A stretch of DNA of 57,632 nucleotides, taken from the IMG/VR virus record IMGVR_UViG_3300012943_000037, positions 1 to 57,632 of that record, one strand, 5' to 3'. A model generated the notes under the pieces. That model worked only from the letters and a program-made list of their open reading frames with translations, did no database searches and had not been told where the DNA came from. How positions within the stretch are numbered: position 1 is the stretch's first letter; every line of letters begins with the position of its first letter. The DNA is from a virus. Its lineage: Duplodnaviria > Caudoviricetes. This document shows, piece after piece, positions 2-32,658 of the stretch. Both the position numbers and the translations under genes were made by a program.

Positions 2-1660
2 CCTAAGACAGATAATGCATTCCTGAAAGCTTCTATTAAGAAGGCAGCAGAAACTACTGCATTAGGAAATGGTGCACTGAAATATACTACTACTGGAAAC
101 GATTTCGTAGACCAGTTTGGTAAGGCAACAATTTATAAGGCTCCTCGTACCTTTGCTGAAATAAGTAAAGATATGAGCTTGTTATTCTCACAAGATGGCC
201 TGACAGCAACTAAGTTTGCTACTTATTTGAGAATGATTACACGTGTGATCTCTTTCAGTGATGGAAGCAGAACAGAACATACACAACGTGGACAGGGCTT
301 GAAACATGAAGGTATATTCCGTATGATTTGGCTGGCACTAAACCAGCCTAACACATTCTGGAAGAATATCCACCTGTTTGTGGCTGCTGGTTCATGGAAG
401 GATGTTATCACCATGTTACAGTATGATTTAGTGTATAATGGATGGGATGGAAGAAAATTGGATTGGGATAATTTTGGTCAGTTAATTCTGGCTGGATTAG
501 AGAACCCACGTTCTTCTGAATTGTTGAAGAAATATCTGCCACAAATCAAGGCTAACTCAGCATGTACAACTGTTGAGAGTCAGGCTGACAACATGATTGC
601 TAAGTGGATATGTTCCCTTATCTTTGGATCAAAAGGTAATACTAATGATTCATCTAAGTATAAGGCATACAGAAAACTGAAGAGTGCAGGTACTGCCCAT
701 AAATGGCAACAGTTGATTAGCCAGAACAAGATGTTATCCATTGATTTCAACTCGATTCATGGTAGAGCATTGGCTAATTTAGTGAGTGGTAAATTCCTGA
801 AAAATGCAGGATTGGAGGCTTCATACCAGAAATGGATTGAAAGTAAACCAGTTGCAAAGTATACAGGTTACCCATATGAACTGATTGGGCCACTTAAGAC
901 AAGAACAGGAATGTCAATTAACCTGACTAAGTATCAGGAAGATACATTGAACAAACAGTTCATGACACTGGTAGAAGTTGCCAGAAATGGTATGGATGAA
1001 GGTGATACTGGACTGTTACCAGTTATTGATACATCTGCATCAATGACATCCTCAGTTCCTGGGACTAAGTGTAGTGCATTTTCTGTAGCTACATCTATGG
1101 CACTGTACTTCTCATACCTGTTAAAGGGTACATTTGAAGATCATTATGCTGAGTTCTCTAACTCATGTATTATGAGACAGTGGAAAGGTAAAGAACCAGT
1201 AGACAGAATCAGAAATCAGGATTCTTCTATCACAGCATCAACAAACTTCCAAGCAATTGGTGATTTATTTGTTGAGATGTTAAGAAAAGGAGTTCCTGAG
1301 AGTGAATTCCCAACTGGTATAATCTGTATCTCAGATGGTTGTTTCAATTCTACAGGTAGCAACAAGACAAACTACCAGACCTTGAAAACGAAACTAAGAT
1401 CAGGTGGTTTTTCACAGGAATATGTGGATAACTTCAAATGTATATTGTGGGATGTACCTAACTCCTACTATGCAAAGAAAGGAAATCAGGCATTTGAATC
1501 ATTTGCAGACCAGCCAAACCTATTCCATATAGGTGGTTTAGACCCTGCATCAATAGCCTTCATTACTGGTATCAAAGGTAGTGAAAGAATACCTCAAACA
1601 TCTGAAGAGTTGTTTGAAGCAGCTATGGAACAGGAAGTTTTGGAAATGATCCAACTTTAA
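2..1660 (+). CDS. DUF2828-family protein with C-terminal vWA domain (Ro60/TROVE-like RNA-binding protein); 5' end lies outside the window
   Basis: The frame is open from position 2 (PKTDNAF...TALGNGALKYTTTGNDFVDQF...) into ORF 173..1660. The NGA-x-Y-TTG-xx-VD-F start, GSWKD, AKW, vWA MIDAS DTSAS, STNF, ISDG-x-F and ILWDV motifs match DUF2828-type proteins. Confidence 0.8.
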   Translation, partial: PKTDNAFLKASIKKAAETTALGNGALKYTTTGNDFVDQFGKATIYKAPRTFAEISKDMSLLFSQDGLTATKFATYLRMITRVISFSDGSRTEHTQRGQGLKHEGIFRMIWLALNQPNTFWKNIHLFVAAGSWKDVITMLQYDLVYNGWDGRKLDWDNFGQLILAGLENPRSSELLKKYLPQIKANSACTTVESQADNMIAKWICSLIFGSKGNTNDSSKYKAYRKLKSAGTAHKWQQLISQNKMLSIDFNSIHGRALANLVSGKFLKNAGLEASYQKWIESKPVAKYTGYPYELIGPLKTRTGMSINLTKYQEDTLNKQFMTLVEVARNGMDEGDTGLLPVIDTSASMTSSVPGTKCSAFSVATSMALYFSYLLKGTFEDHYAEFSNSCIMRQWKGKEPVDRIRNQDSSITASTNFQAIGDLFVEMLRKGVPESEFPTGIICISDGCFNSTGSNKTNYQTLKTKLRSGGFSQEYVDNFKCILWDVPNSYYAKKGNQAFESFADQPNLFHIGGLDPASIAFITGIKGSERIPQTSEELFEAAMEQEVLEMIQL

Positions 1661-1673
1661 TAACAAAAATAAA

Positions 1674-1703
1674 GGATTGGCATAGTTTATGCTATGTCAA
1701 TCC
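1674..1703 (+). other. 12-bp hairpin between the DUF2828 gene and the RNA array (possible processing or stabilising element)
   Basis: GGATTGGCATAG-TTTATG-CTATGTCAATCC; no U-tract follows. Confidence 0.5.
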
Positions 1704-1708
1704 CACAC

Positions 1709-1778
1709 ACGGGAGTAGCTCAAGTGTATAGAGCACCAGAAATGGGGGTTGGTGGTTTGAATCCATCCTCCCGTGCCA
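1709..1778 (+). ncRNA. tRNA-like RNA whose anticodon arm is replaced by a 3-bp GAAA-tetraloop hairpin; encoded CCA end
   Basis: Acceptor ACGGGAG/CTCCCGT, D stem GCTC/GAGC, CCA-GAAA-TGG, T arm GGTGG-TTTGAAT-CCATC, then G-CCA. Confidence 0.8.
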
Positions 1779-1780
1779 CA

Positions 1781-1849
1781 AGATGATGTGCAGCAAACTT
1801 TTATCTATAATTCAGAATTTTACTTTGAAAACAGAAAACAACATCATCT
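1781..1849 (+). ncRNA. Array unit 1 (possible Gln-TTG anticodon-loop-like cargo)
   Basis: AGATGATGT...ACATCATCT stem, GCAGCAAAC; inner CTTTGAA at 1823-1829 has only a weak stem. Confidence 0.7.
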
Positions 1850-1853
1850 GATA

Positions 1854-1913
1854 GGGTTACTAACAGCAAATTCAACATTCAAATTTGGGTTTTGAAAAAC
1901 AAGATAGTAACCC
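1854..1913 (+). ncRNA. Array unit 2 with Pro(TGG) anticodon stem-loop
   Basis: GGGTTACTA...TAGTAACCC stem, ACAGCAAAT; TTCAAA-TTTGGGT-TTTGAA at 1878-1896. Confidence 0.75.
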
Positions 1914-1917
1914 GATA

Positions 1918-1977
1918 AGGTGACCAACAGCAAATCTAATTTACCTACTGCAAATTGGAAATAAAGGATGGTCACCT
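1918..1977 (+). ncRNA. Array unit 3 with Cys(GCA) anticodon-loop mimic
   Basis: AGGTGACCA...TGGTCACCT stem, ACAGCAAAT; CCTA-CTGCAAA-TTGG at 1944-1958 (imperfect stem). Confidence 0.72.
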
Positions 1978-1981
1978 GATA

Positions 1982-2114
1982 AGATTACCCCACAGTACAG
2001 CAAACTTTTGTATTTAACAATTATTAAACATTGGAGTTTTACAAAAAGTAACAAGGTGTGTGAATGGGAACTTCTCTCGGAAGGGAGTTAATAGGAGTTC
2101 ACACAGGGTAATCT
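1982..2114 (+). ncRNA. Array unit 4 (long unit with internal hairpins, cargo unassigned)
   Basis: AGATTACCC...GGGTAATCT stem, ACAGTACAGCAAAC; internal TTTTGTA/TACAAAA and GTGTGAAT/GTTCACAC pairings. Confidence 0.65.
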
Positions 2115-2185
2115 GATTTATATGTAGGAGGAAGGACATACAAGAGTCGTTAAACGTCTCCCAGAGTCCTTCTGACTACTCCAGA

Positions 2186-2321
2186 AGAATTCGTACAGCA
2201 AATAACTAGCAAATTCTAATCATAATAGAAGGTCACAGGTTCGATTCCTGTTCTCCCAACCAGTCTTACTGTCTGGGAGATAGTGTAGTGGAAACATCTA
2301 AAACGCAAAAAAACGAATTCT
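2186..2321 (+). ncRNA. Array unit 5 enclosing a circularly permuted tRNA with CAT anticodon (Met or Ile2)
   Basis: AGAATTCGT...ACGAATTCT stem. The 3' part at 2214-2262 (anticodon arm, T arm, TCTCCCA-A-CCA) precedes the 5' part at 2274-2298 (TGGGAGA, D arm). Confidence 0.82.
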
Positions 2322-2325
2322 GATA

Positions 2326-2530
2326 AGTGTACAGACAGCAAATTACAACGCAAATCCTTGTCACGGACGGGACAGAAGTTCGAATCTTCTACCCCCTGCA
2401 AAGGAATATCTAAGTATCCATGCAAATTGTATGTAACCTGAGGAGGCCATACTTGGAGAGTTTAGATATTCCCTACTTTATAGGGGGTTGGTGTAGTGGT
2501 TAGCATACGTAAAGCAAAAAAATGTACACT
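2326..2530 (+). ncRNA. Array unit 6 enclosing a circularly permuted tRNA-Asp(GTC)
   Basis: AGTGTACA...TGTACACT stem. The 3' part at 2355-2398 precedes the 5' part at 2482-2510; acceptor AGGGGGT/ACCCCCT, discriminator G. Confidence 0.82.
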
Positions 2531-2534
2531 GATA

Positions 2535-2716
2535 GGAAGAGATACAGCAAACAATTATTTAATTGTTCGAATCAATTCTTCCCCACACTTGCAAGTGGGA
2601 GATGATCTATGAAGGAGGGAGGTTGCTAAAACCTTAATACAATCCCCCGGAGGTTATCCAAACCCTGCAAATAAACAAATGGGGAAGCAATAGGGTGGTG
2701 GACACCCTGCTCTTCC
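2535..2716 (+). ncRNA. Array unit 7 with permuted, degenerate tRNA-like content (T arm first)
   Basis: GGAAGAG...CTCTTCC stem, ACAGCAAAC; T arm AATTG-TTCGAAT-CAATT, later hairpin AGGT-TGCTAAA-ACCT. Confidence 0.65.
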
Positions 2717-2720
2717 GTTA

Positions 2721-2783
2721 AGATGTGTAACAGCAAACATTCCCAATGACTCATAATCATTACCACACGGAAAATGCACATCT
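2721..2783 (+). ncRNA. Array unit 8 with CAT anticodon stem-loop
   Basis: AGATGTGTA...TGCACATCT stem, ACAGCAAAC; perfect AATGA-CTCATAA-TCATT at 2745-2761. Confidence 0.8.
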
Positions 2784-2787
2784 GATA

Positions 2788-2856
2788 GGATGCCAAACAG
2801 CAAACAATCTTTAAAACACAAGTAAGCAAAATTTGACAGTTTAAAAAGAGGCATCC
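2788..2856 (+). ncRNA. Array unit 9 (cargo unassigned)
   Basis: GGATGCC...GGCATCC stem, ACAGCAAAC; inner TCTTT/AAAGA pairing. Confidence 0.7.
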
Positions 2857-2863
2857 GTTTTTA

Positions 2864-2930
2864 AGGGCACACACAGCAAACACTTTAAGCATTCTACTTG
2901 TAATGGAAACACGCTAAAAGCATGTGCCCT
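2864..2930 (+). ncRNA. Array unit 10 with Thr(TGT) anticodon stem-loop
   Basis: AGGGCACA...TGTGCCCT stem, ACAGCAAAC; TTCTA-CTTGTAA-TGGAA at 2892-2908. Confidence 0.78.
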
Positions 2931-2934
2931 GTCA

Positions 2935-3050
2935 AGGTATCTAACAGCAAATAACTAGTCGTGTAGGTAGTTCAGTAGGTAGAACACAGGATGGTAAATC
3001 CTGAGGTCTGGGGTTCGAGCCCTCACCCATACAAAACTAAAATGATACCT
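2935..3050 (+). ncRNA. Array unit 11 enclosing a full, non-permuted tRNA-like cloverleaf (2961-3033) with atypical anticodon loop TGGTAAA
   Basis: AGGTATC...GATACCT stem, ACAGCAAAT; GTGTAGG/CCCATAC acceptor, GTTC/GAAC D stem, CAGGA/TCCTG anticodon stem, TGGGG-TTCGAGC-CCTCA T arm. Confidence 0.78.
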
Positions 3051-3055
3051 GAAGT

Positions 3056-3083
3056 CCTTCCTATATGGTGAAATATAGGAAGG
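3056..3083 (+). other. Hairpin between array units 11 and 12
   Basis: CCTTCCTATA-TGGTGAAA-TATAGGAAGG. Confidence 0.5.
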
Positions 3084-3089
3084 CATTTA

Positions 3090-3185
3090 AGTTGGCATAC
3101 AGCAAATTATTTGGTTTAACACAGAATCTCAAACATTCCACGTGAAGTCCCGGTTCAAATCCGGCAAACCCGAAAGGGGCCAACT
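3090..3185 (+). ncRNA. Array unit 12 with D-armless tRNA-like cargo (Leu CAA loop plus T arm)
   Basis: AGTTGGC...GCCAACT stem, ACAGCAAAT; GAAT-CTCAAAC-ATTC, CCGG-TTCAAAT-CCGG, GGTTT/AAACC. Confidence 0.72.
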
Positions 3186-3208
3186 GTTTTTTATTTAAAA
3201 TCAAGACT

Positions 3209-3472
3209 ATGAACGGAATTACTAATCCTAAAGAGTTAAGAGAAGCTATTGCACTAGCCAAAACTGGTGATAAAGAAGCTTTACATCAAATCCATCTGTA
3301 TAAGTGGTATAATTGGTATCAGAATATACATATAAAGGAGGGAACTCCTGAGGATATTGAGAATACCGAAATCTTTAATGATATTAAGGAAAATGATCCT
3401 GAATTACATAAAGAGATTGAAAAGATGATAGATGGTCAAATTTACAAACTTGTATCCACTGAATATTTGTAA
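3209..3472 (+). CDS. Small hypothetical protein embedded between array units 12 and 13
   Basis: 87-aa ATG ORF with composition typical of the genome. Confidence 0.65.
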   Translation: MNGITNPKELREAIALAKTGDKEALHQIHLYKWYNWYQNIHIKEGTPEDIENTEIFNDIKENDPELHKEIEKMIDGQIYKLVSTEYL

Positions 3473-4677: not shown

Positions 4678-5278
4678 AGAAAATTGTCCTTACTGTGGTG
4701 AAAGGTGTTTTGAAGGAGAAGGGTGTGACGAATGGCAAGCTGGTGGCTTTCAAGACAAACCATACTTTGCAAAATACCTTCCTGTAGAAGGAGAGATAAA
4801 AATTGGAGATAGAGTTGAAAGTGAGTCATCTGGTAAGCAAAAAGTACTTGTAACAGGAATCACGAAGAGAGGTGATTATATTACAGATGAACCTGACTTT
4901 TATGAACCTGATTCTTATTTTGTATTACCCAAAAAGAAAGCTAAAAAGTTTTCAAAACAACTATTTCTATGTAGTAGAGATATACAGGTGGGAGATACCG
5001 TTAAGATGAAGTTCTCAGATGGATTAAAAGATTGGGAATGTTCTAATGTTGGCAGATTAGAAGCAGCTAAACATAATGGTTCATTCAAAGTAATAGGTGG
5101 AATATCATCGGAAGCTAAATGGGTTAAGGAAGGAGATGAGTTTGATGAGGATGAGATTGCATTTGCAATTCATGCACCGTGGGAAGAATGGGAACAGGTA
5201 TCTTACGAAGCATGGTTATTAGAGTATACCTTTTATAAGAACATAAAGGTAAAAGGTCATTGTGGTCACTTTCATTAA
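4670..5278 (+). CDS. hypothetical protein with N-terminal Zn-ribbon
   Basis: CPYCGERC...C at the N-terminus; overlaps the upstream stop. Confidence 0.65.
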   Translation: MSKENCPYCGERCFEGEGCDEWQAGGFQDKPYFAKYLPVEGEIKIGDRVESESSGKQKVLVTGITKRGDYITDEPDFYEPDSYFVLPKKKAKKFSKQLFLCSRDIQVGDTVKMKFSDGLKDWECSNVGRLEAAKHNGSFKVIGGISSEAKWVKEGDEFDEDEIAFAIHAPWEEWEQVSYEAWLLEYTFYKNIKVKGHCGHFH

Positions 5279-5287
5279 AAATATTTT

Positions 5288-5680
5288 ATGACAGGAATAG
5301 TAATAGGACGCTTCCAAGTCCCTTATCTACATGCTGGACATGTACATTTAATTACCTCAGCACTACGTCAGTGTAATAAGGTAGTTATATTCCTTGCCTG
5401 TAAATTGGAAGATGATGGCAAGAACCCATATACTATAGCTCATAGGAAACAAATTATAAAAGCTTTCTTTCCTCATGTAGAAGTAGTAACTTTGTGGGAT
5501 AGACAAAGTAATGAAGAATGGTCACAAATCGTTGATTTAGAGGCCGGTACATTTGAAAATCCTGTACTTTTTCATAGTAGGGATTCATTTGCTGTACATT
5601 ACAAAGGTAAACTGTCCCTCATAAAGGTTGGTGAGATTGAGGGTTATAGTGGTACAAAACTTCGTGCAGAAACAAAATAA
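5288..5680 (+). CDS. Cytidyltransferase-like / NMN adenylyltransferase (NadM-like) protein
   Basis: IGRFQVPYLHAGH (HxGH), KNPY and SGTKLR motifs. Confidence 0.8.
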   Translation: MTGIVIGRFQVPYLHAGHVHLITSALRQCNKVVIFLACKLEDDGKNPYTIAHRKQIIKAFFPHVEVVTLWDRQSNEEWSQIVDLEAGTFENPVLFHSRDSFAVHYKGKLSLIKVGEIEGYSGTKLRAETK

Positions 5681-6409: not shown

Positions 6410-7741
6410 ATGAAAAAAATCGTTGTAATAGGAGGAGGAACCTTCTCCCATGTAAGAAATCATTTAGCACTTGCTGCACCAGCATTTGGTCATACAGCAA
6501 CTGTTATTGCACAAACTTCCCTTGATAAATGGGGAGAAACAGCAGATGTAAGACTGTATTTGACAAAAATGGCTGATCCGTTTGATTTGTTTGGAGAACA
6601 ATCTGATCCTATTGTGACGAATGAAGATGTTGAAGAGTTAGCTAAGGAATGGGTTGAGGATTATGATGTTAAGGTAGTATTCTTCAATGCTGCTATCTGT
6701 GATTTTAAGGGTAATATCGCAGACAACAATCTGAAACCTACACAGTCCGGCAAGTATGAGGAGAGGTTGAAGACATCTACAGGTAACCAACTTATGATTC
6801 TGGAACCTTATGATAAGATAGTTGGTAGAATACGAAAGACCAGAAAGGACATATTCCTTGTGGCTTTTAAAACCACCTGTGGTGCTTCTGAAGATGAGAT
6901 GTATATTGCCGGGTTGGATATGTTGAAGAGAAACAGTTGTAATCTGGTATTATGTAATGATACATCAACCAGAAAGAATATGATTATTACCCCGGAAGAA
7001 GCCCGGTATCATGTAACTGATGATAGAGACCTGATTATCAGGGAGTTAGTTGAGATGGCATATTTACGTAGTCAACTGACATTTACACGTTCTACCGTTA
7101 TAGATGGAGAACGTGTAGGGTGGGGTGATAAAAGAATTCCTGCTACACTAAGAGCTATTGTTCACTGGTGTATAATGCAGGGAGCATATAAGGAATTTAA
7201 TGGAGCTACAGTTGGACACTTTGCTGTCAAACTAAATAACAATGAATTCCTGAGTTCTATAAGAAAAACTAATTTTAACAATATCGAAGAACATGGTATG
7301 GTTAGAATAGTAACAGATGGGCCGGATAATGTTATGGCTTTTGGAGCTAAACCATCCGTTGGAGGCCAGTCACAGAGGATTGTGTTCCATGACCATCCTG
7401 AATATGACTGTATAGTACACTTCCATTGCCCATTAAGGCCAGATCATACTGATGATATACCTGTTGTATCCCAAAGAGAATACGAATGTGGTAGTCACCA
7501 GTGTGGAGAAAACACAAGTAAGGGTCTGGGAAAGTTTGGTAATTTATCCTGTGTCATGCTGGATAATCATGGGCCAAACATTGTGTTTCATCACTCAATT
7601 GATGCTACCGAAGTTATGTCATTTATCAACAACAACTTCGATTTGACAAAAAAGACAGGAGGGTTGGTGTCAACTCCCACATTAACAGAACTTTCTAAAA
7701 AACTTGAGTATGATAACAAAGAGCCAGTTACAGAAGGCTAA
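6410..7741 (+). CDS. Fusion of CoaB-like (phosphopantothenate-cysteine ligase/DFP) domain and class II aldolase/adducin-like domain
   Basis: N-terminal GGGT...VR, NAAICDF, LVAFKT, LVLCND; C-terminal GHFAVK, KPS, IVHFHCP, LDNHG. Confidence 0.75.
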   Translation: MKKIVVIGGGTFSHVRNHLALAAPAFGHTATVIAQTSLDKWGETADVRLYLTKMADPFDLFGEQSDPIVTNEDVEELAKEWVEDYDVKVVFFNAAICDFKGNIADNNLKPTQSGKYEERLKTSTGNQLMILEPYDKIVGRIRKTRKDIFLVAFKTTCGASEDEMYIAGLDMLKRNSCNLVLCNDTSTRKNMIITPEEARYHVTDDRDLIIRELVEMAYLRSQLTFTRSTVIDGERVGWGDKRIPATLRAIVHWCIMQGAYKEFNGATVGHFAVKLNNNEFLSSIRKTNFNNIEEHGMVRIVTDGPDNVMAFGAKPSVGGQSQRIVFHDHPEYDCIVHFHCPLRPDHTDDIPVVSQREYECGSHQCGENTSKGLGKFGNLSCVMLDNHGPNIVFHHSIDATEVMSFINNNFDLTKKTGGLVSTPTLTELSKKLEYDNKEPVTEG

Positions 7742-13880: not shown

Positions 13881-16001
13881 ATGATATTAGCACAGGGTGT
13901 AGAAAAGAAAGTGGGCATCTGTGACATTGAGACAATGTTAGAGTTGTTTGATGTTGGTTGCTATGATCCAGATACAGGTGACTGGAAAGAATTTGAGGTT
14001 TCTGCATACAAAAATGAACTATATGAGTTCGTTAAATGGTATACATCTAAGCCTTGTGATTTTCTAGTCACCTTTAACGGGATAGGATTTGACCAACAGG
14101 TAATGCAATATGTGGTAGATGAACACCAGAAATGGTTTGATTTGACCAATTTAGAGGTATGTAAGAAGATTAGTGACTATGCTCAGAAAGTAATTGAGGA
14201 TAGTAAATTTGGGTTACCTCACAAATATAAGGAGAAAGATTTCTCCATACCACCTTTGGATGTTTTTCGTGTCCATCACATGGATAATGAGGCTAAAAGG
14301 ACATCCTTGAAATGGTGTGCATTTATGATGAATATGGATGTGGAGGAAATGCCCATCCATCACTTGAAGACTGATTTGACTAAGGAAGAGGTAGAGATGA
14401 CCAGAATGTACAGACGTAATGACTGTATAGTTACTTATGGTGTATTGCTGGTTACTTTGGGTAGATTAGAAGAGGTTGAAAAACTAAACGGTGGTTATTC
14501 CCTAGATGAGTTGAAGGATTACAGGGGAAAAAACATGATTCAGGATAGATATGATGTATGGAGAGAGACTGGTCTGTGGTGTTTAAACTGGAGTGATGTT
14601 AAGATTGGTGAAGAGTGGAATAAACAAGATTATAAATGGGCAGAGAAAATAAAGGATGAGGATGAGAGAAATCTGCTCTTTAGTAAGAAGATAAAGCATC
14701 CTTATGGACAACGTTTCCATAAGTTCTTTCCTTCTACTATGGATTTCAAAACTGATAAGCTAAAGAAATTCTTCAAAGATGTTGGTAATCAGTTTGTTAA
14801 AGCTGAAAAACAGGAGTTCCAAATAACAATTGGACAGACTACATATACCATAGCTAAAGGTGGATTACACAGTACTGAGAAACACAGGATTGTAGAACCA
14901 CCAGATGGTTATAATTATGATGACTTGGACGTTGGGAGTCAGTATCCCAATTCTATCTATAAGCTGAAGATATATGCACCTCACTTGACTATGACCATTA
15001 TGGATCAGTTCAAGGGTAAGATTGAGAAGAGGTTGATATATAAATCTAAAGCAAAAGAACTTAAGGCTCTTGGTGAAGTCGAGGAAGCTCGTAAATACAC
15101 CTCTGTACAAGACATGTTAAAATTATGTCTTAATGGTGGATACTATGGCAAATTAGGTCAGAAAGGTAGCTTCCTCGAATTCCCTGAGGGTTTGTTGAAG
15201 GTTTGTATGAGTAATCAGGTTGAGATTATGATGCTCATTGAGATGATGGAAGAGAGTGGATTTAGGGTATTATCAGGAAATACTGATGGTATTACTGTAT
15301 TATATCCTCAAAGTAGAAGAGAAGAGTTTCTGCAAATCTGTAAGGATTGGGAAAACAAGGTTGGTAATCATGAGATGGGTAAATTGGAGGAAACCAAATT
15401 TGCTAAGGTATGGCAGGAATCCATCAATCACTACTTAGCTAAGAAGATTGATTTGGATGAGAAGGGTAACTTTAAAGGATATTCTGCTAAGAAGAAGGGA
15501 CGTTTTGCTACTGAATTCTTACTTAATAAGAATAAATCTTCAAGGGTTATAAGTTTGGCAGTAGAAGCATACTTCATGCAAGGTGTTGATCCTGAACAAT
15601 TTATCAGGAATCATAAGAAAATATTTGACTTTACCATAGCTAAAAAGGCATCTGGTGGAATGTATTATGAGGAGGAGTGGAAAGAGGGTGGAAAAGTTCA
15701 GATAAAGAGACACAAAAAGCTGGTTAGATACTTTATCTCTAAGAAAGGTACAGTATTGTGGAAGAGAGGTAAGAATTTTGAGGGTGATGATATGAATAAT
15801 CAGTGTGAAGCCCCTAATGAGTTAGGACAACCTTTGGTTACCTACTTTAATAAGGCTTGGAAATCAGAGGATTATGGAATAGACTATGACCAGTATATCT
15901 ATAAGACTCTGAGTAGAATTGATAAGATTGAAAAAACGAGGAAAGCTGCGTCTTTTGTACAAAAGGCACACGGAACTCAACAAATGAGTTTGTTTGGATG
16001 A
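13881..16001 (+). CDS. polB: Family B DNA polymerase with 3'-5' exonuclease domain (crAss-like type)
   Basis: Exonuclease DIE, FNGIGFD, YRRND; polymerase DLDVGSQYP, KLCLNGGYYG, NTDG. Confidence 0.92.
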   Translation: MILAQGVEKKVGICDIETMLELFDVGCYDPDTGDWKEFEVSAYKNELYEFVKWYTSKPCDFLVTFNGIGFDQQVMQYVVDEHQKWFDLTNLEVCKKISDYAQKVIEDSKFGLPHKYKEKDFSIPPLDVFRVHHMDNEAKRTSLKWCAFMMNMDVEEMPIHHLKTDLTKEEVEMTRMYRRNDCIVTYGVLLVTLGRLEEVEKLNGGYSLDELKDYRGKNMIQDRYDVWRETGLWCLNWSDVKIGEEWNKQDYKWAEKIKDEDERNLLFSKKIKHPYGQRFHKFFPSTMDFKTDKLKKFFKDVGNQFVKAEKQEFQITIGQTTYTIAKGGLHSTEKHRIVEPPDGYNYDDLDVGSQYPNSIYKLKIYAPHLTMTIMDQFKGKIEKRLIYKSKAKELKALGEVEEARKYTSVQDMLKLCLNGGYYGKLGQKGSFLEFPEGLLKVCMSNQVEIMMLIEMMEESGFRVLSGNTDGITVLYPQSRREEFLQICKDWENKVGNHEMGKLEETKFAKVWQESINHYLAKKIDLDEKGNFKGYSAKKKGRFATEFLLNKNKSSRVISLAVEAYFMQGVDPEQFIRNHKKIFDFTIAKKASGGMYYEEEWKEGGKVQIKRHKKLVRYFISKKGTVLWKRGKNFEGDDMNNQCEAPNELGQPLVTYFNKAWKSEDYGIDYDQYIYKTLSRIDKIEKTRKAASFVQKAHGTQQMSLFG

Positions 16002-16534
16002 GAAGAGTATTATTTTTAGATGTGGATGGTGTTTTAAATAGCCACATCATAGCAGAGGAATGGTCACAGAGACCGGGACATATTGGATATGGAGGTTGGT
16101 TTGACGAAACAGACACAGCTACTAAGGAGAATGTAAAGTGGGGACATATTAATGTAGAGAATCTACGTGAGATAGTCGAAACTACTAAGTGTGAGATTGT
16201 TATATCATCTGCTTGGAGGAAATCATTCTCTATGGAGAAGATGAAGGAAATGTTTGCTGTGTATGGTTGGGAAGATGTTCCCATTATTGATAAAACAAGT
16301 GTTCTAAAAGATAGAGGACTTGAGATTGATGCATGGTTAGCTGAAAATCCTGATGTAACTAATTATGTTATATTAGATGATATTGACCAGTTCACAGTAG
16401 AGCAGCAAAAGAACTTCATACATACAAACCCTGAGTGTGGTTTGTTACATGAAGATGTAAATAAGGCAATAGAAATTTTAACAGGTATATATGAAACAGA
16501 TAGAGTTGACAACAAAACCCCAGTACGATCCTGA
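15998..16534 (+). CDS. HAD-family phosphatase (Swiss-Army-knife RNA-repair-like HAD)
   Basis: LFLDVDGVLN, IVISSAWR, RGLEIDAWL and YVILDD motifs. Confidence 0.82.
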   Translation: MRRVLFLDVDGVLNSHIIAEEWSQRPGHIGYGGWFDETDTATKENVKWGHINVENLREIVETTKCEIVISSAWRKSFSMEKMKEMFAVYGWEDVPIIDKTSVLKDRGLEIDAWLAENPDVTNYVILDDIDQFTVEQQKNFIHTNPECGLLHEDVNKAIEILTGIYETDRVDNKTPVRS

Positions 16535-17869: not shown

Positions 17870-18391
17870 ATGGAAAAATCTATGATCTGTCTGACTAATC
17901 CTAAATATCCACACAATGTGGGAGCAGCTATACGTGCTTGTTCCTGTTGGGGTGTAGATAAGCTTGTATGGTCAGGAAACAGAGTTCCCCATCCTGAAGA
18001 ATGGAAAGATGATGAGGAACTTGGGCAATACAGAATGCCTAGAGAAGAAAGAATGAAGGGTTATAAGAGTGTTGAGTTAATAAGGACTGACAAATTCAAA
18101 GACTTGATTGTGCAGGGAATAACTCCTGTAGCAATTGAGGTAATGGAGGAGGCAGAATGCTTATTTGACTTTGAACATCCAGAAAATGCAATGTATATCT
18201 TCGGCCCTGAAGATGGAGGTTTAACATCCACTATTCTCCAACATTGTCACAGATTTGTCACAATTCCTACAAAGCACTGTCTCAACCTATCATGTGCTAT
18301 TAATGTAGTTATGGCACATCGTGCTCAACAAATCTATCAGAAAACAGGAAGTCGTTTATCTTTGGTTGAGGATAGAGGCTTCATAAACTAA
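17870..18391 (+). CDS. SpoU/TrmH-family (SPOUT) RNA methyltransferase
   Basis: PHNVGAAIRAC, YIFGPEDGGL and IPTKHCLNLS motifs. Confidence 0.85.
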   Translation: MEKSMICLTNPKYPHNVGAAIRACSCWGVDKLVWSGNRVPHPEEWKDDEELGQYRMPREERMKGYKSVELIRTDKFKDLIVQGITPVAIEVMEEAECLFDFEHPENAMYIFGPEDGGLTSTILQHCHRFVTIPTKHCLNLSCAINVVMAHRAQQIYQKTGSRLSLVEDRGFIN

Positions 18392-19716: not shown

Positions 19717-19799
19717 TGCAGGGTTAAGGAGAGGTCAACCTTGGAAGGCTCATAACCTTCTGTCTTAGGACACGTCCAGTTCGATTCTGGCCCCTGCTT
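19717..19799 (+). tRNA. tRNA with CAT anticodon (Met-like), long variable arm, unpaired 1:72
   Basis: TGCAGGG/CCCTGCT, AAGG/CCTT D stem, GAAGG-CTCATAA-CCTTC, TGTC-TTAG-GACA, CCAG-TTCGATT-CTGG. Confidence 0.8.
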
Positions 19800-21078: not shown

Positions 21079-21344
21079 GTAATGTAGTTGATTCCATCCA
21101 GACAGTTGCCAATGCAACTTCAAGCCTGACAAATCTTATTAATAAAGGTTTCAGGATAAAGATGTTTTTCATCGTAGGAATTTGTACCTTTGTACTGGGA
21201 CTAGGTTTAGGACTAACTGTAGGTGTCTACTATGGTTACAGAAAGTGGACAAGGAAGGTTGATGTTCTTATCGAACAGTCCAAACATTACTATAATAAAG
21301 ATGTGGTTGATAAAGTGAAGGATAGGATAAAAAGTAAGTTATGA
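21075..21344 (+). CDS. single-pass membrane protein
   Basis: Central hydrophobic helix. Confidence 0.6.
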   Translation: MSNVVDSIQTVANATSSLTNLINKGFRIKMFFIVGICTFVLGLGLGLTVGVYYGYRKWTRKVDVLIEQSKHYYNKDVVDKVKDRIKSKL

Positions 21345-22078
21345 CGTACAAAATCTACATTGAAGCATTAAATAATTTCCCTGTAGGGGATCATGGTGTT
21401 TCTGCATACCTTGGCTTTAAGGATAGAGGTACTGATATAATATTCTTTGAGGATATTGAGGATGTACCTACATCTAAGTGGAATATAATTGTAGCTGGTA
21501 TAGAAACAACAAATAAGTATCTTGAAAGGTTGGGAATAGGCCCAAAAATGTCATTGAATATACCTTCCTGTATTGAGAAATATGCAGATAGGAAAATTAT
21601 GCGTATGACTATGGGTGAATTTCGTAATCAATTAGATACACCATATTCTTATCCCTATTTCATCAAGCCGAATGGGAAAAGTAAGGAGTTCATTGGGGGT
21701 GTGATTAAGAGTGAGGAAGCTTTAGCTTTACACTTTAGAAATATCCCTGATGAATGTCCTATCTTGGTATCAGAAGTTGTTGATTTTATAACTGAATACA
21801 GATGTTATGTTTGTGAGGGTGAATTACTGGGTATCTACTGGTATTTAGGTGATTTCAGAGTATTTCCTGACGTTAAGGTAATAGATGAAGCTATTGCAGA
21901 ATACACAAAAGCAGGTGCTCCTGCTGGTTATTCCATAGATTTTGGGGTAACAAATGATGGCAGAACACTCTTAGTTGAGTGTAATGATGGTTGGTCTTTG
22001 GGCAATTATGGACTTGAACCATCCAAGTATTGTCGTCTACTTGGTAGAAGATGGCATGAAATGATGAAACCGTTTTAA
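21341..22078 (+). CDS. ATP-grasp domain protein (DUF4343/R2K-like)
   Basis: YFIKP, KEFIG, EYRCYV, YSIDFGV and LVECNDGWSLGNYG motifs. Confidence 0.82.
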   Translation: MTYKIYIEALNNFPVGDHGVSAYLGFKDRGTDIIFFEDIEDVPTSKWNIIVAGIETTNKYLERLGIGPKMSLNIPSCIEKYADRKIMRMTMGEFRNQLDTPYSYPYFIKPNGKSKEFIGGVIKSEEALALHFRNIPDECPILVSEVVDFITEYRCYVCEGELLGIYWYLGDFRVFPDVKVIDEAIAEYTKAGAPAGYSIDFGVTNDGRTLLVECNDGWSLGNYGLEPSKYCRLLGRRWHEMMKPF

Positions 22079-22079
22079 G

Positions 22080-22859
22080 ATGACATATTTAATGCTTGAG
22101 GATAGAAGGGAGAGAACTCCCGAAGTAATAGCTAACTATATATACCCCGTAGAGTTACGTGCTATGTATAGAAAAGAACAATGGCAAATTGTCAGGAGCT
22201 ATGATGAGTTTGTGGAATGGATTTTGAAGTATGGTTTACCTGATGTCATATCTTTTGACCATGATTTAGCTGATGAACATTATGCATTTGCAGGAAATTA
22301 CAATGTCTTCAGGTATGAGACTGGTTATGATGCAGCTAAATGGTTGTGTAAGTACTGTAAAGATAATAACAAACCACTACCACAATGCTATGTTCATAGT
22401 ATGAATCCTGTAGGTGCAGATAACATTCGTCACTATCTTGAAAACTTCAAAAAAGAAACAATGAGGAAGAATATTGAGATGAAATCACACGGATTAAAAT
22501 GTGACAATCCTAAATGTGACTGGAAAAGTGAAGATATTAAAGTGGAGGACGCTGAAAAATACCTAAACACACCATGTCCTAAATGTGGAGAAAACATATT
22601 AACTGAAGAAGATTTTAAAAACCTACAGGCAGTTATAAAGACAGCCGATTTTATTAATTCTTTATCACCAGAAGAGATAGATGAATTTGCTAAAATCACT
22701 GGTTTCCCTATAACAACAGAAGGTAAAGGTGGTGGATTATTCAGTATGAGTGTTGAAACACACAAGGAAATTAAAATATCAGAAATCAAAAAGGTTGAAG
22801 ATGAAGATACTGGTGATAGGTCAAGCACCCCCGGCACAGGAACAGGAACTACCATATGA
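22080..22859 (+). CDS. Cyclic-phosphate-processing receiver-like domain, in frame with a Zn-ribbon domain
   Basis: VRSYDEF, ISFDHDL, TGYD, VHSMNPVGA; C-terminal CDNPKC...CPKCG. Confidence 0.72.
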   Translation: MTYLMLEDRRERTPEVIANYIYPVELRAMYRKEQWQIVRSYDEFVEWILKYGLPDVISFDHDLADEHYAFAGNYNVFRYETGYDAAKWLCKYCKDNNKPLPQCYVHSMNPVGADNIRHYLENFKKETMRKNIEMKSHGLKCDNPKCDWKSEDIKVEDAEKYLNTPCPKCGENILTEEDFKNLQAVIKTADFINSLSPEEIDEFAKITGFPITTEGKGGGLFSMSVETHKEIKISEIKKVEDEDTGDRSSTPGTGTGTTI

Positions 22860-32574: not shown

Positions 32575-32645
32575 GTCCCTATAGTTCAATGGAAGAACAA
32601 CAGATTTCTAATCTGTATATGGTGGTTCGACTCCACCTAGGGATT
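32575..32645 (+). tRNA. tRNA-Arg(TCT)
   Basis: GTCCCTA/TAGGGAT, GTTC/GAAC, ACAGA-TTTCTAA-TCTGT, GGTGG-TTCGACT-CCACC. Confidence 0.9.
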
Positions 32646-32658
32646 CTAATATATTATT

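What the first reader, a model, noticed from the sequence alone, without database searches (positions are those of the whole stretch)
1781..3185. Array grammar: covarying terminal stems, invariant CAGCAAA and 4-nt GATA spacers imply precise processing
Stem sequences differ from unit to unit yet stay complementary (AGATGATGT/ACATCATCT, GGGTTACTA/TAGTAACCC, AGGTGACCA/TGGTCACCT, AGAATTCGT/ACGAATTCT, AGTGTACA/TGTACACT, GGATGCC/GGCATCC, AGGGCACA/TGTGCCCT), which indicates selection on RNA structure rather than DNA repetition. Every unit begins with RG and ends with CY followed by G. Adjacent units are joined by exactly four nucleotides: GATA at 1850, 1914, 1978, 2322, 2531 and 2784, GTTA at 2717, GTCA at 2931. 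This resembles a polycistronic precursor cut into monomers, a CRISPR-like logic with structural instead of sequence repeats.
Basis: partly seen in the sequence, partly recalled or inferred. Interest (0 to 1): 0.85.

Follow-up and report, generated by a model that had tools for sequence, protein, structure and literature searches.

The report
Phage Ro60-like protein's handle-tagged RNA array
A large phage carries twelve back-to-back small RNA genes that share one short "handle" and hold pieces of tRNA, placed right after a gene for a Ro60-like RNA-binding ring protein, so this is probably an undescribed relative of the Ro60/Y-RNA particle used in the fight over tRNAs.

Summary
Twelve units at 1781-3185 (+) each have a 7-9 bp terminal stem of different sequence, CAGCAAA on the 5' side, RG...CY ends and a following G. 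Eight of 11 junctions are exactly 4 nt. Across 130 loci, 4 nt is the sharply preferred spacer (64 cases against at most 6 for any other length).

The array follows a 5'-cut gene whose model matches Ro60/Rsr over its full length (Z 12.6-15.1). The same gene-plus-handle pairing recurs in relatives and in distant phages of Leptolyngbya, E. coli, Listeria, Bacillus and Campylobacter.

The cargo is tRNA-derived: anticodon-arm mimics (20 of 49 short units canonical; shuffles 2.75), permuted tRNA bodies and one tRNA-Tyr.

The handle nearly reaches Rfam's threshold for Dictyostelium Class I RNA (39.3 against 41.5 bits).

Best reading: Y-RNA-like partners of a divergent Ro60-like protein, made from one precursor and cut in the spacer. 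Binding, processing and function are inferred, because no RNA data were available. The CRISPR analogy is not supported.

This scan noted the same system earlier in several other phage genomes. I found no paper on it.

The parts
2..1660 (+). Ro60-like protein gene (Pfam DUF2828/DUF7788 type: helical ring plus vWA domain). It is cut at its 5' end by the contig end; full-length homologs are 565-578 aa.
   Evidence: PHROG 850 'RNA-binding protein', E 6.7e-32. DUF7788 at 24 bits, under the 27.1 cut-off; homologs carry PF11443 and PF25043. AF2 model pLDDT 77.9, pTM 0.75. The top 9 Foldseek hits are Ro60/Rsr. VIA-align gives Z 12.6-15.1 over 381-438 residues for 8 Ro60/Rsr entries; the next hit is Z 9.2 and covers the vWA domain only. 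D343, S345 and S347 are invariant, which I read from recall as a MIDAS-like DxSxS.
1709..1778 (+). tRNA-like RNA with no anticodon. It has acceptor, D and T arms and an encoded CCA, but the anticodon arm is only CCA-GAAA-TGG.
   Evidence: Rfam tRNA 42 bits with 4 nt where the model has 11. ARAGORN does not call it. Fold.
1781..1849 (+). Unit 1: 9-bp stem, motif at 1791, hairpin with 7-nt loop ATTTTAC.
   Evidence: Rfam Dicty_Class_I_RNA 20.5 bits
1854..1913 (+). Unit 2: 9-bp stem, anticodon-arm-like hairpin with loop TTTGGGT.
   Evidence: model R1 59.5 bits, but this is a training sequence
1918..1977 (+). Unit 3: 9-bp stem, 8-bp hairpin with a 9-nt loop.
1982..2114 (+). Unit 4: 9-bp stem, motif 16 nt from the unit start (the only exception to 10 nt), two-hairpin cargo.
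2115..2185 (+). 71-nt structured spacer (hairpin, -24 kcal/mol) between units 4 and 5, with no motif.
2186..2321 (+). Unit 5: a whole tRNA-like cloverleaf, circularly permuted at about position 26/27. The order is handle, anticodon arm (loop ATCATAA), GGTC, T arm, acceptor 3' strand with A-CCA, 11-nt linker, acceptor 5' strand, D arm, handle.
   Evidence: MFE fold; Rfam YrlA 18.3 bits at 2231-2297 and Class I 18.1 bits
2326..2530 (+). Unit 6: permuted tRNA-like RNA. The T arm and acceptor 3' strand come first and the acceptor 5' strand and D arm last, with a linker of about 85 nt. Rejoining the ends would rebuild an arm with loop TTGTCAC (GTC).
   Evidence: the rejoining idea comes from sibling note e1-6296996 and was checked only by reading
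2535..2716 (+). Unit 7: 7-bp stem; T-arm-first tRNA-like cargo with a long insert in the closed acceptor.
2721..2783 (+). Unit 8: 9-bp stem (one G-U pair); anticodon-arm mimic with loop CTCATAA (CAT).
2788..2856 (+). Unit 9: 7-bp stem, followed by GTTTTT.
   Evidence: R1 45.2 bits, training sequence
2864..2930 (+). Unit 10: 8-bp stem; anticodon-arm mimic with 5-bp stem and loop CTTGTAA (TGT).
2935..3050 (+). Unit 11: 7-bp stem enclosing an unpermuted tRNA-Tyr(GTA) at 2961-3033. Its loop TGGTAAA has G where U33 is usual.
   Evidence: ARAGORN; Rfam tRNA 53.4 bits
3051..3089 (+). 39-nt hairpin spacer (-17 kcal/mol).
3090..3185 (+). Unit 12: 7-bp stem; cargo has a T-arm-like hairpin and a GAAA-capped hairpin. 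It is followed by GTTTTTTATTT, a possible end of the transcript.

Best explanation
The array is a row of genes for small structured RNAs built as handle plus cargo.

The handle has four parts:
- a 7-9 bp stem joining the two ends of the unit, kept in structure but not in sequence;
- a single-stranded A-CAGCAA-A that begins 10 nt from the 5' end;
- an A-rich strand before the 3' stem strand;
- fixed flanking bases (A before the unit, AG...CU at its ends, G after it).

The cargo is a piece of tRNA: an anticodon arm alone, a permuted tRNA body, or a whole tRNA.

I infer that the handle is the binding site for the Ro60-like ring protein encoded just upstream. Ro60 holds Y RNAs in a comparable way, through a motif on the 5' strand next to the terminal helix. 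I also infer that the array is transcribed as one precursor and cut once in each 4-nt linker, giving monomers with about A-AG at the 5' end and CU-G(A) at the 3' end. The particle would then serve the phage in the conflict over tRNAs, by showing tRNA parts as decoys or substrates to host tRNA-cutting or tRNA-handling enzymes, or by guiding RNA quality control and repair.

Shown here: the grammar, its conservation, its linkage to the gene, the fold of the protein and the tRNA-like cargo. Inferred: transcription as RNA, protein binding, the cut sites and the function.
For: Grammar in the window.

Spacing: 64 junctions of 4 nt against 0-6 at any other length from 0 to 15.

Handle consensus from 86 chained units: A(-1) 85/86, A1 80/86, A10 80/86, CAGCAA 86/86 (by selection), G(+1) 85/86. 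Spacers are GATA in 48 of 61.

Linkage to the gene:
- All 5 loci fetched through the protein alone (L010-L014, 50-61% identity) carry + strand units downstream.
- Of 9 array loci found through DNA alone, 5 hold the gene on the same strand; in the other 4 the gene does not appear in the stretch fetched, and in three of them (L066, L068, L126) the array lies at its edge.
- Leptolyngbya phage Lbo-JY46 has 5 units starting 8 nt after the CDS.

Distant phages: a model built only from the cyanophage-type units finds units beside the DUF2828 gene in Listeria P100plus, Campylobacter F336, E. coli SUSP1 and Bacillus FADO. E-values are 5.6e-5 to 3e-3 in 132.6 kb, and all 16 hits are on the gene's strand.

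Protein: Ro60/Rsr are the top 8 structural matches over the full length.

Precedent: Y RNAs lie within 4 kb of Ro60 on the same strand, carry a motif near the 5' end and often a T-arm / closed-acceptor / D-arm domain (Chen 2014, PMC4201824, sections 5 and 6 read). A Thermus phage Ro60 binds two phage Y-like RNAs (PMC12135203, passages read).

Cargo: 34 of 49 short units have a hairpin of 4 bp or more with a 7-nt loop (shuffles mean 15.8, largest 25). Twenty have U33 and R37 (shuffles mean 2.75, largest 8). Partial YrlA hits reach 42, 33 and 28 bits in relatives.

Context: the gene sits at tRNA clusters and near RNA ligases in other phages. The window also encodes HAD_SAK_2, R2K ATP-grasp and cREC domains, Pfam families whose descriptions name RNA repair (HAD_SAK_2) and cyclic-phosphate processing (cREC).
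Against: - No RNA or binding data exist: no RNA run was available, so transcription, ends and binding are all inferred.
- The protein does not hit Pfam TROVE, and sequence and profile searches of PDB found nothing; the likeness to Ro60 is by fold only.
- The Ro60-binding motifs of known Y RNAs (GNCGAAN0-1G, GGUCCGA) are absent from the handle.
- The Erwinia jumbo phage with a DUF2828 gene showed no clear unit within 6 kb. In Vibrio phage QD01 the handle-bearing RNAs lie about 14 kb from a distant homolog.
- The covariation count is partly circular, because units were chosen for stems of 7 bp or more.
- Many loci were found with a pattern containing GATAAG and CAGCAAA, which biases the consensus at those positions.
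- 15 of 49 short units have no hairpin with a 7-nt loop.
Confidence: 0.7

Rival explanations
1. The handle is a processing element of broken-up tRNA genes. The terminal stem brings the two tRNA parts together, an endonuclease and an RNA ligase cut the handle out and join the ends through a circular intermediate, and RNase P and 3' trimming then release a working tRNA. This is how the permuted tRNA genes of the red alga Cyanidioschyzon are matured (recalled, not from a call).
For: Units 5 and 6 hold all parts of a tRNA in permuted order, and unit 5 has an encoded CCA. Vibrio phage QD01 has the unpermuted form: tRNA-like genes in which a hairpin with a GATA or GACA loop, followed after 10 nt by CAGCAAC or CGGCAAT, is inserted near the anticodon arm. 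BLAST homology between the two runs straight through the window's unit 6 / GATA / unit 7 junction. Closed handles occur 16 times in the loci against 1 in the control. RNA-repair-type genes are in the window.
Against: Most units carry only an anticodon arm or an odd hairpin, so there is no tRNA to assemble. The junction is a large A-rich internal loop, about 21 by 13 nt in unit 6, and not a bulge-helix-bulge. In E. coli phage SUSP1 the acceptor stem of the tRNA-like unit is closed by a tetraloop. Unit 11 already holds an unpermuted tRNA. No RNA ligase family was seen among the 57 window ORFs scanned, though the record is only 31% complete.
Confidence: 0.12
2. The units are free-standing decoys or sponges that show anticodon arms and tRNA bodies to host anticodon nucleases or tRNA enzymes. 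They work without the Ro60-like protein, and the shared handle serves only folding, stability or processing.
For: Canonical anticodon loops are strongly enriched, and the commonest is CTTTTAA, seen in 5 of 49 units. A tRNA body without an anticodon heads the array. tRNA cleavage as a host defence, answered by phage tRNAs and RNA repair, is described in PMC7824862 (passages read).
Against: This does not explain why the handle sequence is kept beside the same protein family in phages of cyanobacteria, Proteobacteria and Firmicutes. It is also compatible with the best explanation as the downstream function.
Confidence: 0.12
3. A DNA-level repeat element, such as a CRISPR-like array, recombination sites or a replication origin, and not RNA genes.
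For: The arrangement is tandem and regular, with inverted repeats.
Against: Repeats are 60-75% identical and irregularly spaced. The motif and the tRNA-like parts are strand-specific. Stem sequences vary while pairing is kept, with occasional G-U pairs. No Cas or integrase family appeared among the Pfam hits of the ORFs scanned.
Confidence: 0.03

Closest known systems
Ro60 (Rsr) with Y RNAs YrlA/YrlB of bacteria and phages (Rfam RF02553; Chen et al. 2014, PMC4201824; Thermus phage phiLo Ro60 with Yrl1/Yrl2, PMC12135203)
   Same: A ring-plus-vWA protein gene has small RNA genes next to it on the same strand. The RNAs are closed by a 5'/3' terminal stem and have a conserved single-stranded motif near the 5' end. 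Some carry a T-arm / closed-acceptor / D-arm tRNA-like domain. There are several RNAs per locus.
   Different: The protein belongs to Pfam DUF2828/DUF7788 and not to TROVE, and resembles Ro60 only by fold. The motif is ACAGCAAA and not GNCGAA(N)G or CGAA. Up to 12 units are joined by 4-nt spacers. The cargo includes bare anticodon arms, fully permuted tRNAs and a whole tRNA. The Rfam YrlA score is far below threshold (18.3 bits in the window, at most 42 in relatives, against 69).
Class I RNAs of dictyostelid social amoebae (Rfam RF01414; Kjellin et al. 2021, PMC7919456, passages read)
   Same: Both are about 60 nt long, with a short terminal stem kept by compensatory changes. A motif ending in ACAGCAA lies directly after the 5' stem strand, with the same distance from the 5' end, and the second half is A-rich. 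The ends are AAG...CUG(U) in the amoebae and A|AG...CU|G(A) in the phages. One phage unit matches CUUACAGCAA at 10 of 10 positions and scores 39.3 bits.
   Different: Class I RNAs are separate eukaryotic genes with a DUSE promoter. Their known binder is the RRM protein Rnp1A, and the paper reports them from no other organism. The phage units are tandem, carry tRNA cargo, sit beside a Ro60-like gene and stay below the gathering score (41.5). Whether the likeness reflects common descent, a shared partner or convergence is open.
Circularly permuted tRNA genes of Cyanidioschyzon merolae (recalled; no paper read here)
   Same: In units 5 and 6 the 3' part of the tRNA lies upstream of the 5' part, and the transcript ends pair with each other.
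   Different: There is no bulge-helix-bulge junction, and no splicing endonuclease is known in bacteria. Most units hold no complete tRNA.
Phage tRNA gene clusters (for example E. coli phage SUSP1, Listeria phage P100plus)
   Same: Tandem, same-strand, closely spaced RNA genes without internal promoters. The DUF2828 gene sits at the edge of such clusters.
   Different: Only one unit holds a tRNA that passes Rfam's threshold. The units share a non-tRNA handle.

Membership tests
Ro60/Y RNA system (YrlA/YrlB type) | Partner protein is a Ro60 ortholog (TROVE HEAT-repeat ring plus vWA domain) | tested here: inconclusive
   The fold matches Ro60/Rsr over its full length (Z 12.6-15.1; Foldseek E 4.8e-7). 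However, Pfam gives DUF7788/DUF2828 and not TROVE, and there is no sequence hit in PDB.
Ro60/Y RNA system (YrlA/YrlB type) | RNA genes within about 4 kb of the protein gene, on the same strand | tested here: met
   The array starts 121 nt after the stop codon on the same strand. The same holds in L010-L014, L136, L035, L079, L089 and L114.
Ro60/Y RNA system (YrlA/YrlB type) | Terminal stem formed by the 5' and 3' ends | tested here: met
   12 of 12 units
Ro60/Y RNA system (YrlA/YrlB type) | Ro-binding motif GNCGAAN0-1G (bacteria) or GGUCCGA (animals) near the 5' end | tested here: not met
   The first 20 nt of every unit read stem-N-CAGCAAA, and no CGAA motif is present there.
Ro60/Y RNA system (YrlA/YrlB type) | tRNA-like domain in the order (V), T arm, closed acceptor, D arm | tested here: met
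   Units 5, 6 and 7, with partial YrlA model matches. The other units do not have it.
Ro60/Y RNA system (YrlA/YrlB type) | Reaches Rfam RF02553 gathering score (69 bits) | tested here: not met
   18.3 bits in the window; best in relatives 42 bits
Ro60/Y RNA system (YrlA/YrlB type) | RNA physically bound by the protein | not testable with these tools
   No tool here models protein-RNA binding, and no RNA run was listed.
Dictyostelid Class I RNA (RF01414) | About 42-65 nt with a short terminal stem kept by compensatory changes | tested here: met
   The six short window units are 60-69 nt with 7-9 bp stems. The commonest lengths among all 86 chained units are 50-75 nt.
Dictyostelid Class I RNA (RF01414) | 11-nt motif CCUUACAGCAA next to the 5' stem strand, with U3, C6, C9, A10, A11 nearly invariant | tested here: inconclusive
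   ACAGCAA is invariant and at the same place. The position equal to U3 is T in 38 and A in 31 of 86 units. One relative has CUUACAGCAA.
Dictyostelid Class I RNA (RF01414) | Reaches Rfam gathering score (41.5 bits) | tested here: not met
   Window best 20.5 bits. Relatives reach 39.3, 35.8 and 30.7 bits, with 11 hits in 67.8 kb, all on units.
Dictyostelid Class I RNA (RF01414) | Single genes with a DUSE promoter in a dictyostelid genome; binds Rnp1A | tested here: not met
   The window is a virus record and the units are tandem with 4-nt spacers. Binding could not be tested.
CRISPR array | Near-identical direct repeats at regular spacing, with cas genes | tested here: not met
   Repeats are 60-75% identical with spacing from 64 to 1102 nt. 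No Cas family appeared among the Pfam hits.
Permuted tRNA genes (Cyanidioschyzon type) | 3' half upstream of 5' half, with the ends forming a bulge-helix-bulge for the splicing endonuclease | tested here: not met
   The permuted order is met in units 5 and 6. The junction, however, is a perfect 8-9 bp stem next to a large unpaired A-rich loop and is not a BHB.

The most novel reading that the evidence does not exclude
The phage handle and the Class I RNAs of social amoebae may be the same RNA module: a terminal stem, ACAGCAA 10 nt from the 5' end, and AAG...CUG ends. If so, Class I RNAs, whose function has been unexplained since their first description (cited in PMC7919456 as Aspegren et al. 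2004), would be Y-RNA-like partners of a DUF2828-type Ro60-like protein. Phages would use the module as a programmable handle that presents chosen tRNA anticodon arms (Lys-, Thr-, Met- and Arg-like loops), tRNA bodies or whole tRNAs to host tRNA-cutting defences. The GAUA linker would be both the cut site and, in unpermuted or circularised forms, the hairpin loop.
Probability: 0.25. Interest if true: 0.9.

Novelty: new variant of a known kind. Interest (0 to 1): 0.8.

Why it matters
Ro60 with its Y RNAs is a conserved RNA-surveillance particle and a human autoantigen, and what it does in bacteria and phages is still being worked out. This locus shows a second, sequence-divergent Ro60-like family that is present in 304 of 50,697 deposited phage records. 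These include well-studied Listeria, E. coli/Salmonella, Staphylococcus, Bacillus and Campylobacter phages.

The family comes with its own unannotated RNA family. In GenBank records the units lie in gaps or under doubtful small CDSs. The handle-plus-cargo design, with cargo made of tRNA parts, points to a way for phages to answer host attacks on tRNA.

The arrays also offer many natural variants for defining what the protein reads. The near-threshold match to Dictyostelium Class I RNAs gives those RNAs a first testable lead to a partner protein. All of this can be tested in E. coli K-12 with phage SUSP1.

Tried and rejected
- Coding region: rejected. There is no + strand ORF of 50 aa or more in 1660-3209, only short minus-strand ORFs.
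- CRISPR-like or other DNA repeat: rejected.
- Known Rfam family at the gathering threshold: only two tRNAs in the whole window.
- Self-cleaving ribozyme in the window's array: none appeared among the E <= 10 hits.
- Alternative hairpins across the junctions: rejected. Only 2 of 58 junctions have 5 contiguous pairs, and most have 1-3, which follows from the AG/CU ends.
- Sequence and profile searches of PDB with the protein found nothing useful.
- The genome search with PF11443 on the window's own record found no match, and nothing rang in the controls, so that answer is uninformative.
- The ESM Atlas gave only viral DUF7788/DUF2828 clusters. I therefore could not test whether Dictyostelium has such a protein.
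- A scan of genome contigs with a two-unit pattern gave 29 stretches. None has a real array or a Ro-like gene, and the one 6-bp candidate (L148) is coding sequence. The GATAAG-type arrays were thus seen only in virus records.
- RNA evidence: no RNA holder was listed.
- Complex prediction was not used, because it does not take RNA.
- The default filters of the R1 search missed several of its own training units in the window, so that search undercounts.
- Papers: 10 searches found no description of this RNA family, nor of DUF2828/DUF7788 function.
- Burroughs and Aravind 2016, Sim et al. 2020 and Avesson et al. 2011 are not held. What they say about TROVE-like phage proteins, or about the four Class I-binding proteins, is therefore unseen.
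- Supplements are closed. Supplemental Table S2 of Chen 2014, which lists the 22 phages, might bear on whether any DUF2828-type phage was covered.


Full report
**What is there**

The window is a whole IMG/VR virus record of 57,632 bp, estimated 31% complete. Between 1781 and 3185 the + strand carries 12 copies of CAGCAAA. The window has 29 in all against 7.5 expected.

Each copy sits in a unit closed by a 7-9 bp stem. The 5' strand of the stem begins exactly 10 nt before the motif in 11 units, and 16 nt before it in unit 4. The stems differ from unit to unit. Every unit starts AG or GG, ends CT or CC, and is followed by G.

Eight of the 11 junctions are 4 nt long: GATA six times, GTTA once and GTCA once. 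The other three are 71, 7 and 39 nt, and two of these fold as hairpins. There is no + strand ORF of 50 aa or more. Direct repeats are only 60-75% alike.

**Is it more than chance?**

A single 7-9 bp stem somewhere within 300 nt is not rare: 3 to 164 of 500 shuffles reach the observed length. The combined grammar is different.

- In 130 loci (1.19 Mb, both strands), 63 units end exactly 4 nt before the next unit's start. Two controls, one with reversed sequence and one with a reversed motif, give 0.
- The spacer-length histogram has 64 cases at 4 nt and 0-6 at every other length from 0 to 15.
- Over 86 distinct chained units, the base before the unit is A in 85, the base after it is G in 85, position 10 is A in 80, and 48 of 61 spacers are GATA.

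Two caveats apply. Loci L016-L135 were found with a pattern that contains TGATAAG and CAGCAAA, so one unit per locus is biased at those positions. The pair count on 47 aligned short units gives 96.9% paired against 60.6% shuffled and 34-46% when slid, with 129 double changes against 37. That count is partly circular, because units were picked for stems of 7 bp or more.

**The neighbour**

The ORF at 2-1660, cut by the contig end, hits PHROG 850 'RNA-binding protein' (E 6.7e-32). Its homologs are 565-578 aa and carry Pfam DUF2828 and DUF7788.

An AlphaFold model (pLDDT 77.9, pTM 0.75) has Ro60 and bacterial Rsr as its nine best Foldseek hits. A second look places eight Ro60/Rsr entries on top, with Z 12.6-15.1 and 381-438 aligned residues spanning the model. 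The list then drops to Z 9.2 for matches to the vWA domain alone. Sequence and profile searches of PDB find nothing. This is a Ro60-like protein by fold and not a TROVE-family member by sequence.

**Conservation and linkage**

- All five viral contigs fetched through the protein alone (50-61% identity) have the same units downstream on the same strand, again with GATA spacers.
- Nine array-bearing loci were found through DNA alone. Five hold the gene on the same strand. In the other four the gene does not appear in the stretch fetched, and in three of them (L066, L068, L126) the array lies at its edge.
- The closest named phage, Leptolyngbya phage Lbo-JY46 (46% identity), has five unannotated units starting 8 nt after the CDS.
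- The protein family occurs in 304 deposited phage records. In E. coli phage SUSP1, Listeria phage P100plus, Bacillus phage FADO and Campylobacter phage F336, units with the same handle lie next to the gene, among or beside tRNA genes.
- A covariance model built only from the cyanophage-type short units finds these distant units at E 5.6e-5 to 3e-3 in 132.6 kb. All 16 hits are on the gene's strand.
- One Erwinia jumbo phage showed no clear unit within 6 kb.
- A two-unit pattern found no real array in 185,579 prokaryote genomes.

**The cargo**

- Unit 11 encloses a tRNA-Tyr(GTA) that has G at position 33.
- Unit 5 folds as a complete cloverleaf permuted at about position 26/27. The order is anticodon arm, T arm, acceptor 3' strand with CCA, linker, acceptor 5' strand, D arm. 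Units 6 and 7 are similar.
- SUSP1 has the same layout with a tetraloop-closed acceptor.
- Among 49 distinct short units, 34 carry a hairpin of 4 bp or more with a 7-nt loop (shuffles 15.8, largest 25). Twenty have U33 and R37 (shuffles 2.75, largest 8). The loops include CTTTTAA (five units), CTTGTAA, CTCATAA and CTTCTAA. Fifteen have no such hairpin.
- A tRNA body with a three-pair, GAAA-capped stub in place of the anticodon arm heads the array at 1709-1778.

The units are thus one handle joined to different tRNA parts.

**GATA as linker and as loop**

Vibrio phage QD01 has unpermuted tRNA-like genes. In these a hairpin with a GATA or GACA loop, followed 10 nt after the loop by CAGCAAC or CGGCAAT, is inserted next to the anticodon arm. 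The BLAST match between the window and this phage runs through the unit 6 / GATA / unit 7 junction. The window's open handle is therefore a circular permutation of that closed one.

Closed handles occur 16 times in the fetched loci against once in the control, and six of them have GATA loops. Across the window-type junctions only the conserved CU/AG ends can pair. This fits cutting in the linker. It also leaves room for end-joining, which would recreate the closed form. I could not test either.

**Comparison with known families**

Y RNAs share several features with these units: genes beside Ro60 on the same strand, a terminal stem, a 5' motif contacted by the protein, and often a T-arm / closed-acceptor / D-arm domain (PMC4201824, sections 5 and 6). 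A phage Ro60 binds phage Y-like RNAs (PMC12135203, passages). Here the motif differs, the protein family differs, and the YrlA model scores far below threshold.

Unexpectedly, Rfam's model of Dictyostelium Class I RNA hits the units. It scores 20.5 and 18.1 bits in the window. In six related loci it gives 11 hits, all on units, with a best of 39.3 bits against a threshold of 41.5; that unit matches CUUACAGCAA at 10 of 10 positions and has the terminal CUG. Kjellin et al. (PMC7919456, passages) describe Class I RNAs as follows: about 60 nt long, AAG...CUGU ends, a 6-bp stem kept by compensatory changes, the 11-nt motif next to the 5' strand, and no counterpart outside dictyostelids. This is a resemblance in design. 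Membership fails on score and on context.

**How it most likely works**

Shown: a conserved handle-plus-cargo RNA gene family linked to a Ro60-like gene.

Inferred:
- The protein binds the handle.
- The array is one transcript. No promoter-like site lies inside it, and a T-run follows unit 12.
- The transcript is cut once per linker.
- The particle acts on or against enzymes that handle tRNA. Three observations point that way: the gene sits at tRNA clusters and near RtcB or other RNA ligases in other phages; the window itself encodes HAD_SAK_2, R2K and cREC domains; and tRNA cleavage as a host defence, answered by phage tRNAs and RNA repair, is described in PMC7824862 (passages).

The cut-and-ligate route to real tRNAs remains possible for the permuted units only.

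**Earlier notes and the literature**

They are unchecked AI notes and do not count as independent support. I reached the Ro60-like, Y-like and Class I points before reading them. The suggestion that unit 6 can be rejoined came from one of them.

Ten paper searches found no description of this RNA family. Three relevant papers are not held, and supplements were closed.

Noticed in passing
window 15998-16534, 17870-18391, 21341-22078, 22080-22859: Genes with Pfam HAD_SAK_2 ('Swiss Army Knife RNA repair' HAD domain, E 1e-27), SpoU methylase, R2K ATP-grasp (E 8e-42) and cREC (cyclic-phosphate processing receiver, E 1e-20). Together they look like an RNA-repair or modification set, 13-19 kb downstream of the array.
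   Followed up: partly
window 19718-19798 and 32575-32646: Two further tRNA genes far from the array. tRNA-Met(CAT) is 81 nt and is called by ARAGORN only. tRNA-Arg(TCT) scores 69 bits in Rfam.
   Followed up: no
L011 4655-4742: A RAGATH-1 hammerhead ribozyme match (49 bits, threshold 56.3, E 4e-5) lies 43 nt before a lone handle unit (4786-4847), just upstream of the Ro60-like gene. Self-cleavage may set an RNA end there.
   Followed up: no
L011 6513-6881: A weak tmRNA match (23.4 bits, E 1.7e-5) lies directly after the Ro60-like gene of a related phage.
   Followed up: no
L001 3228-3914 (Vibrio phage QD01) and L137 6511-6681 (E. coli phage SUSP1): Deposited annotations place very short 'hypothetical protein' CDSs over tRNA-like and handle RNA regions. 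These are probably not genes for proteins.
   Followed up: partly
window 6410-7741 and 5288-5680: One ORF combines a DFP (pantothenate metabolism flavoprotein) domain with a class II aldolase domain. A small cytidylyltransferase-like ORF lies just downstream of the array.
   Followed up: no
window, one of the 20 ORFs between 31586 and 56807: A PARP-type ADP-ribosyltransferase catalytic domain (E 1.4e-19) sits beside RecA, ThyX, DNA ligase and ribonucleotide reductase. I did not determine which ORF carries it.
   Followed up: no
window 2115-2185 and 3051-3089: Two stable hairpins without the motif interrupt the array where the 4-nt rule fails. Their role (terminator, processing signal or degenerate unit) is unknown.
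   Followed up: partly
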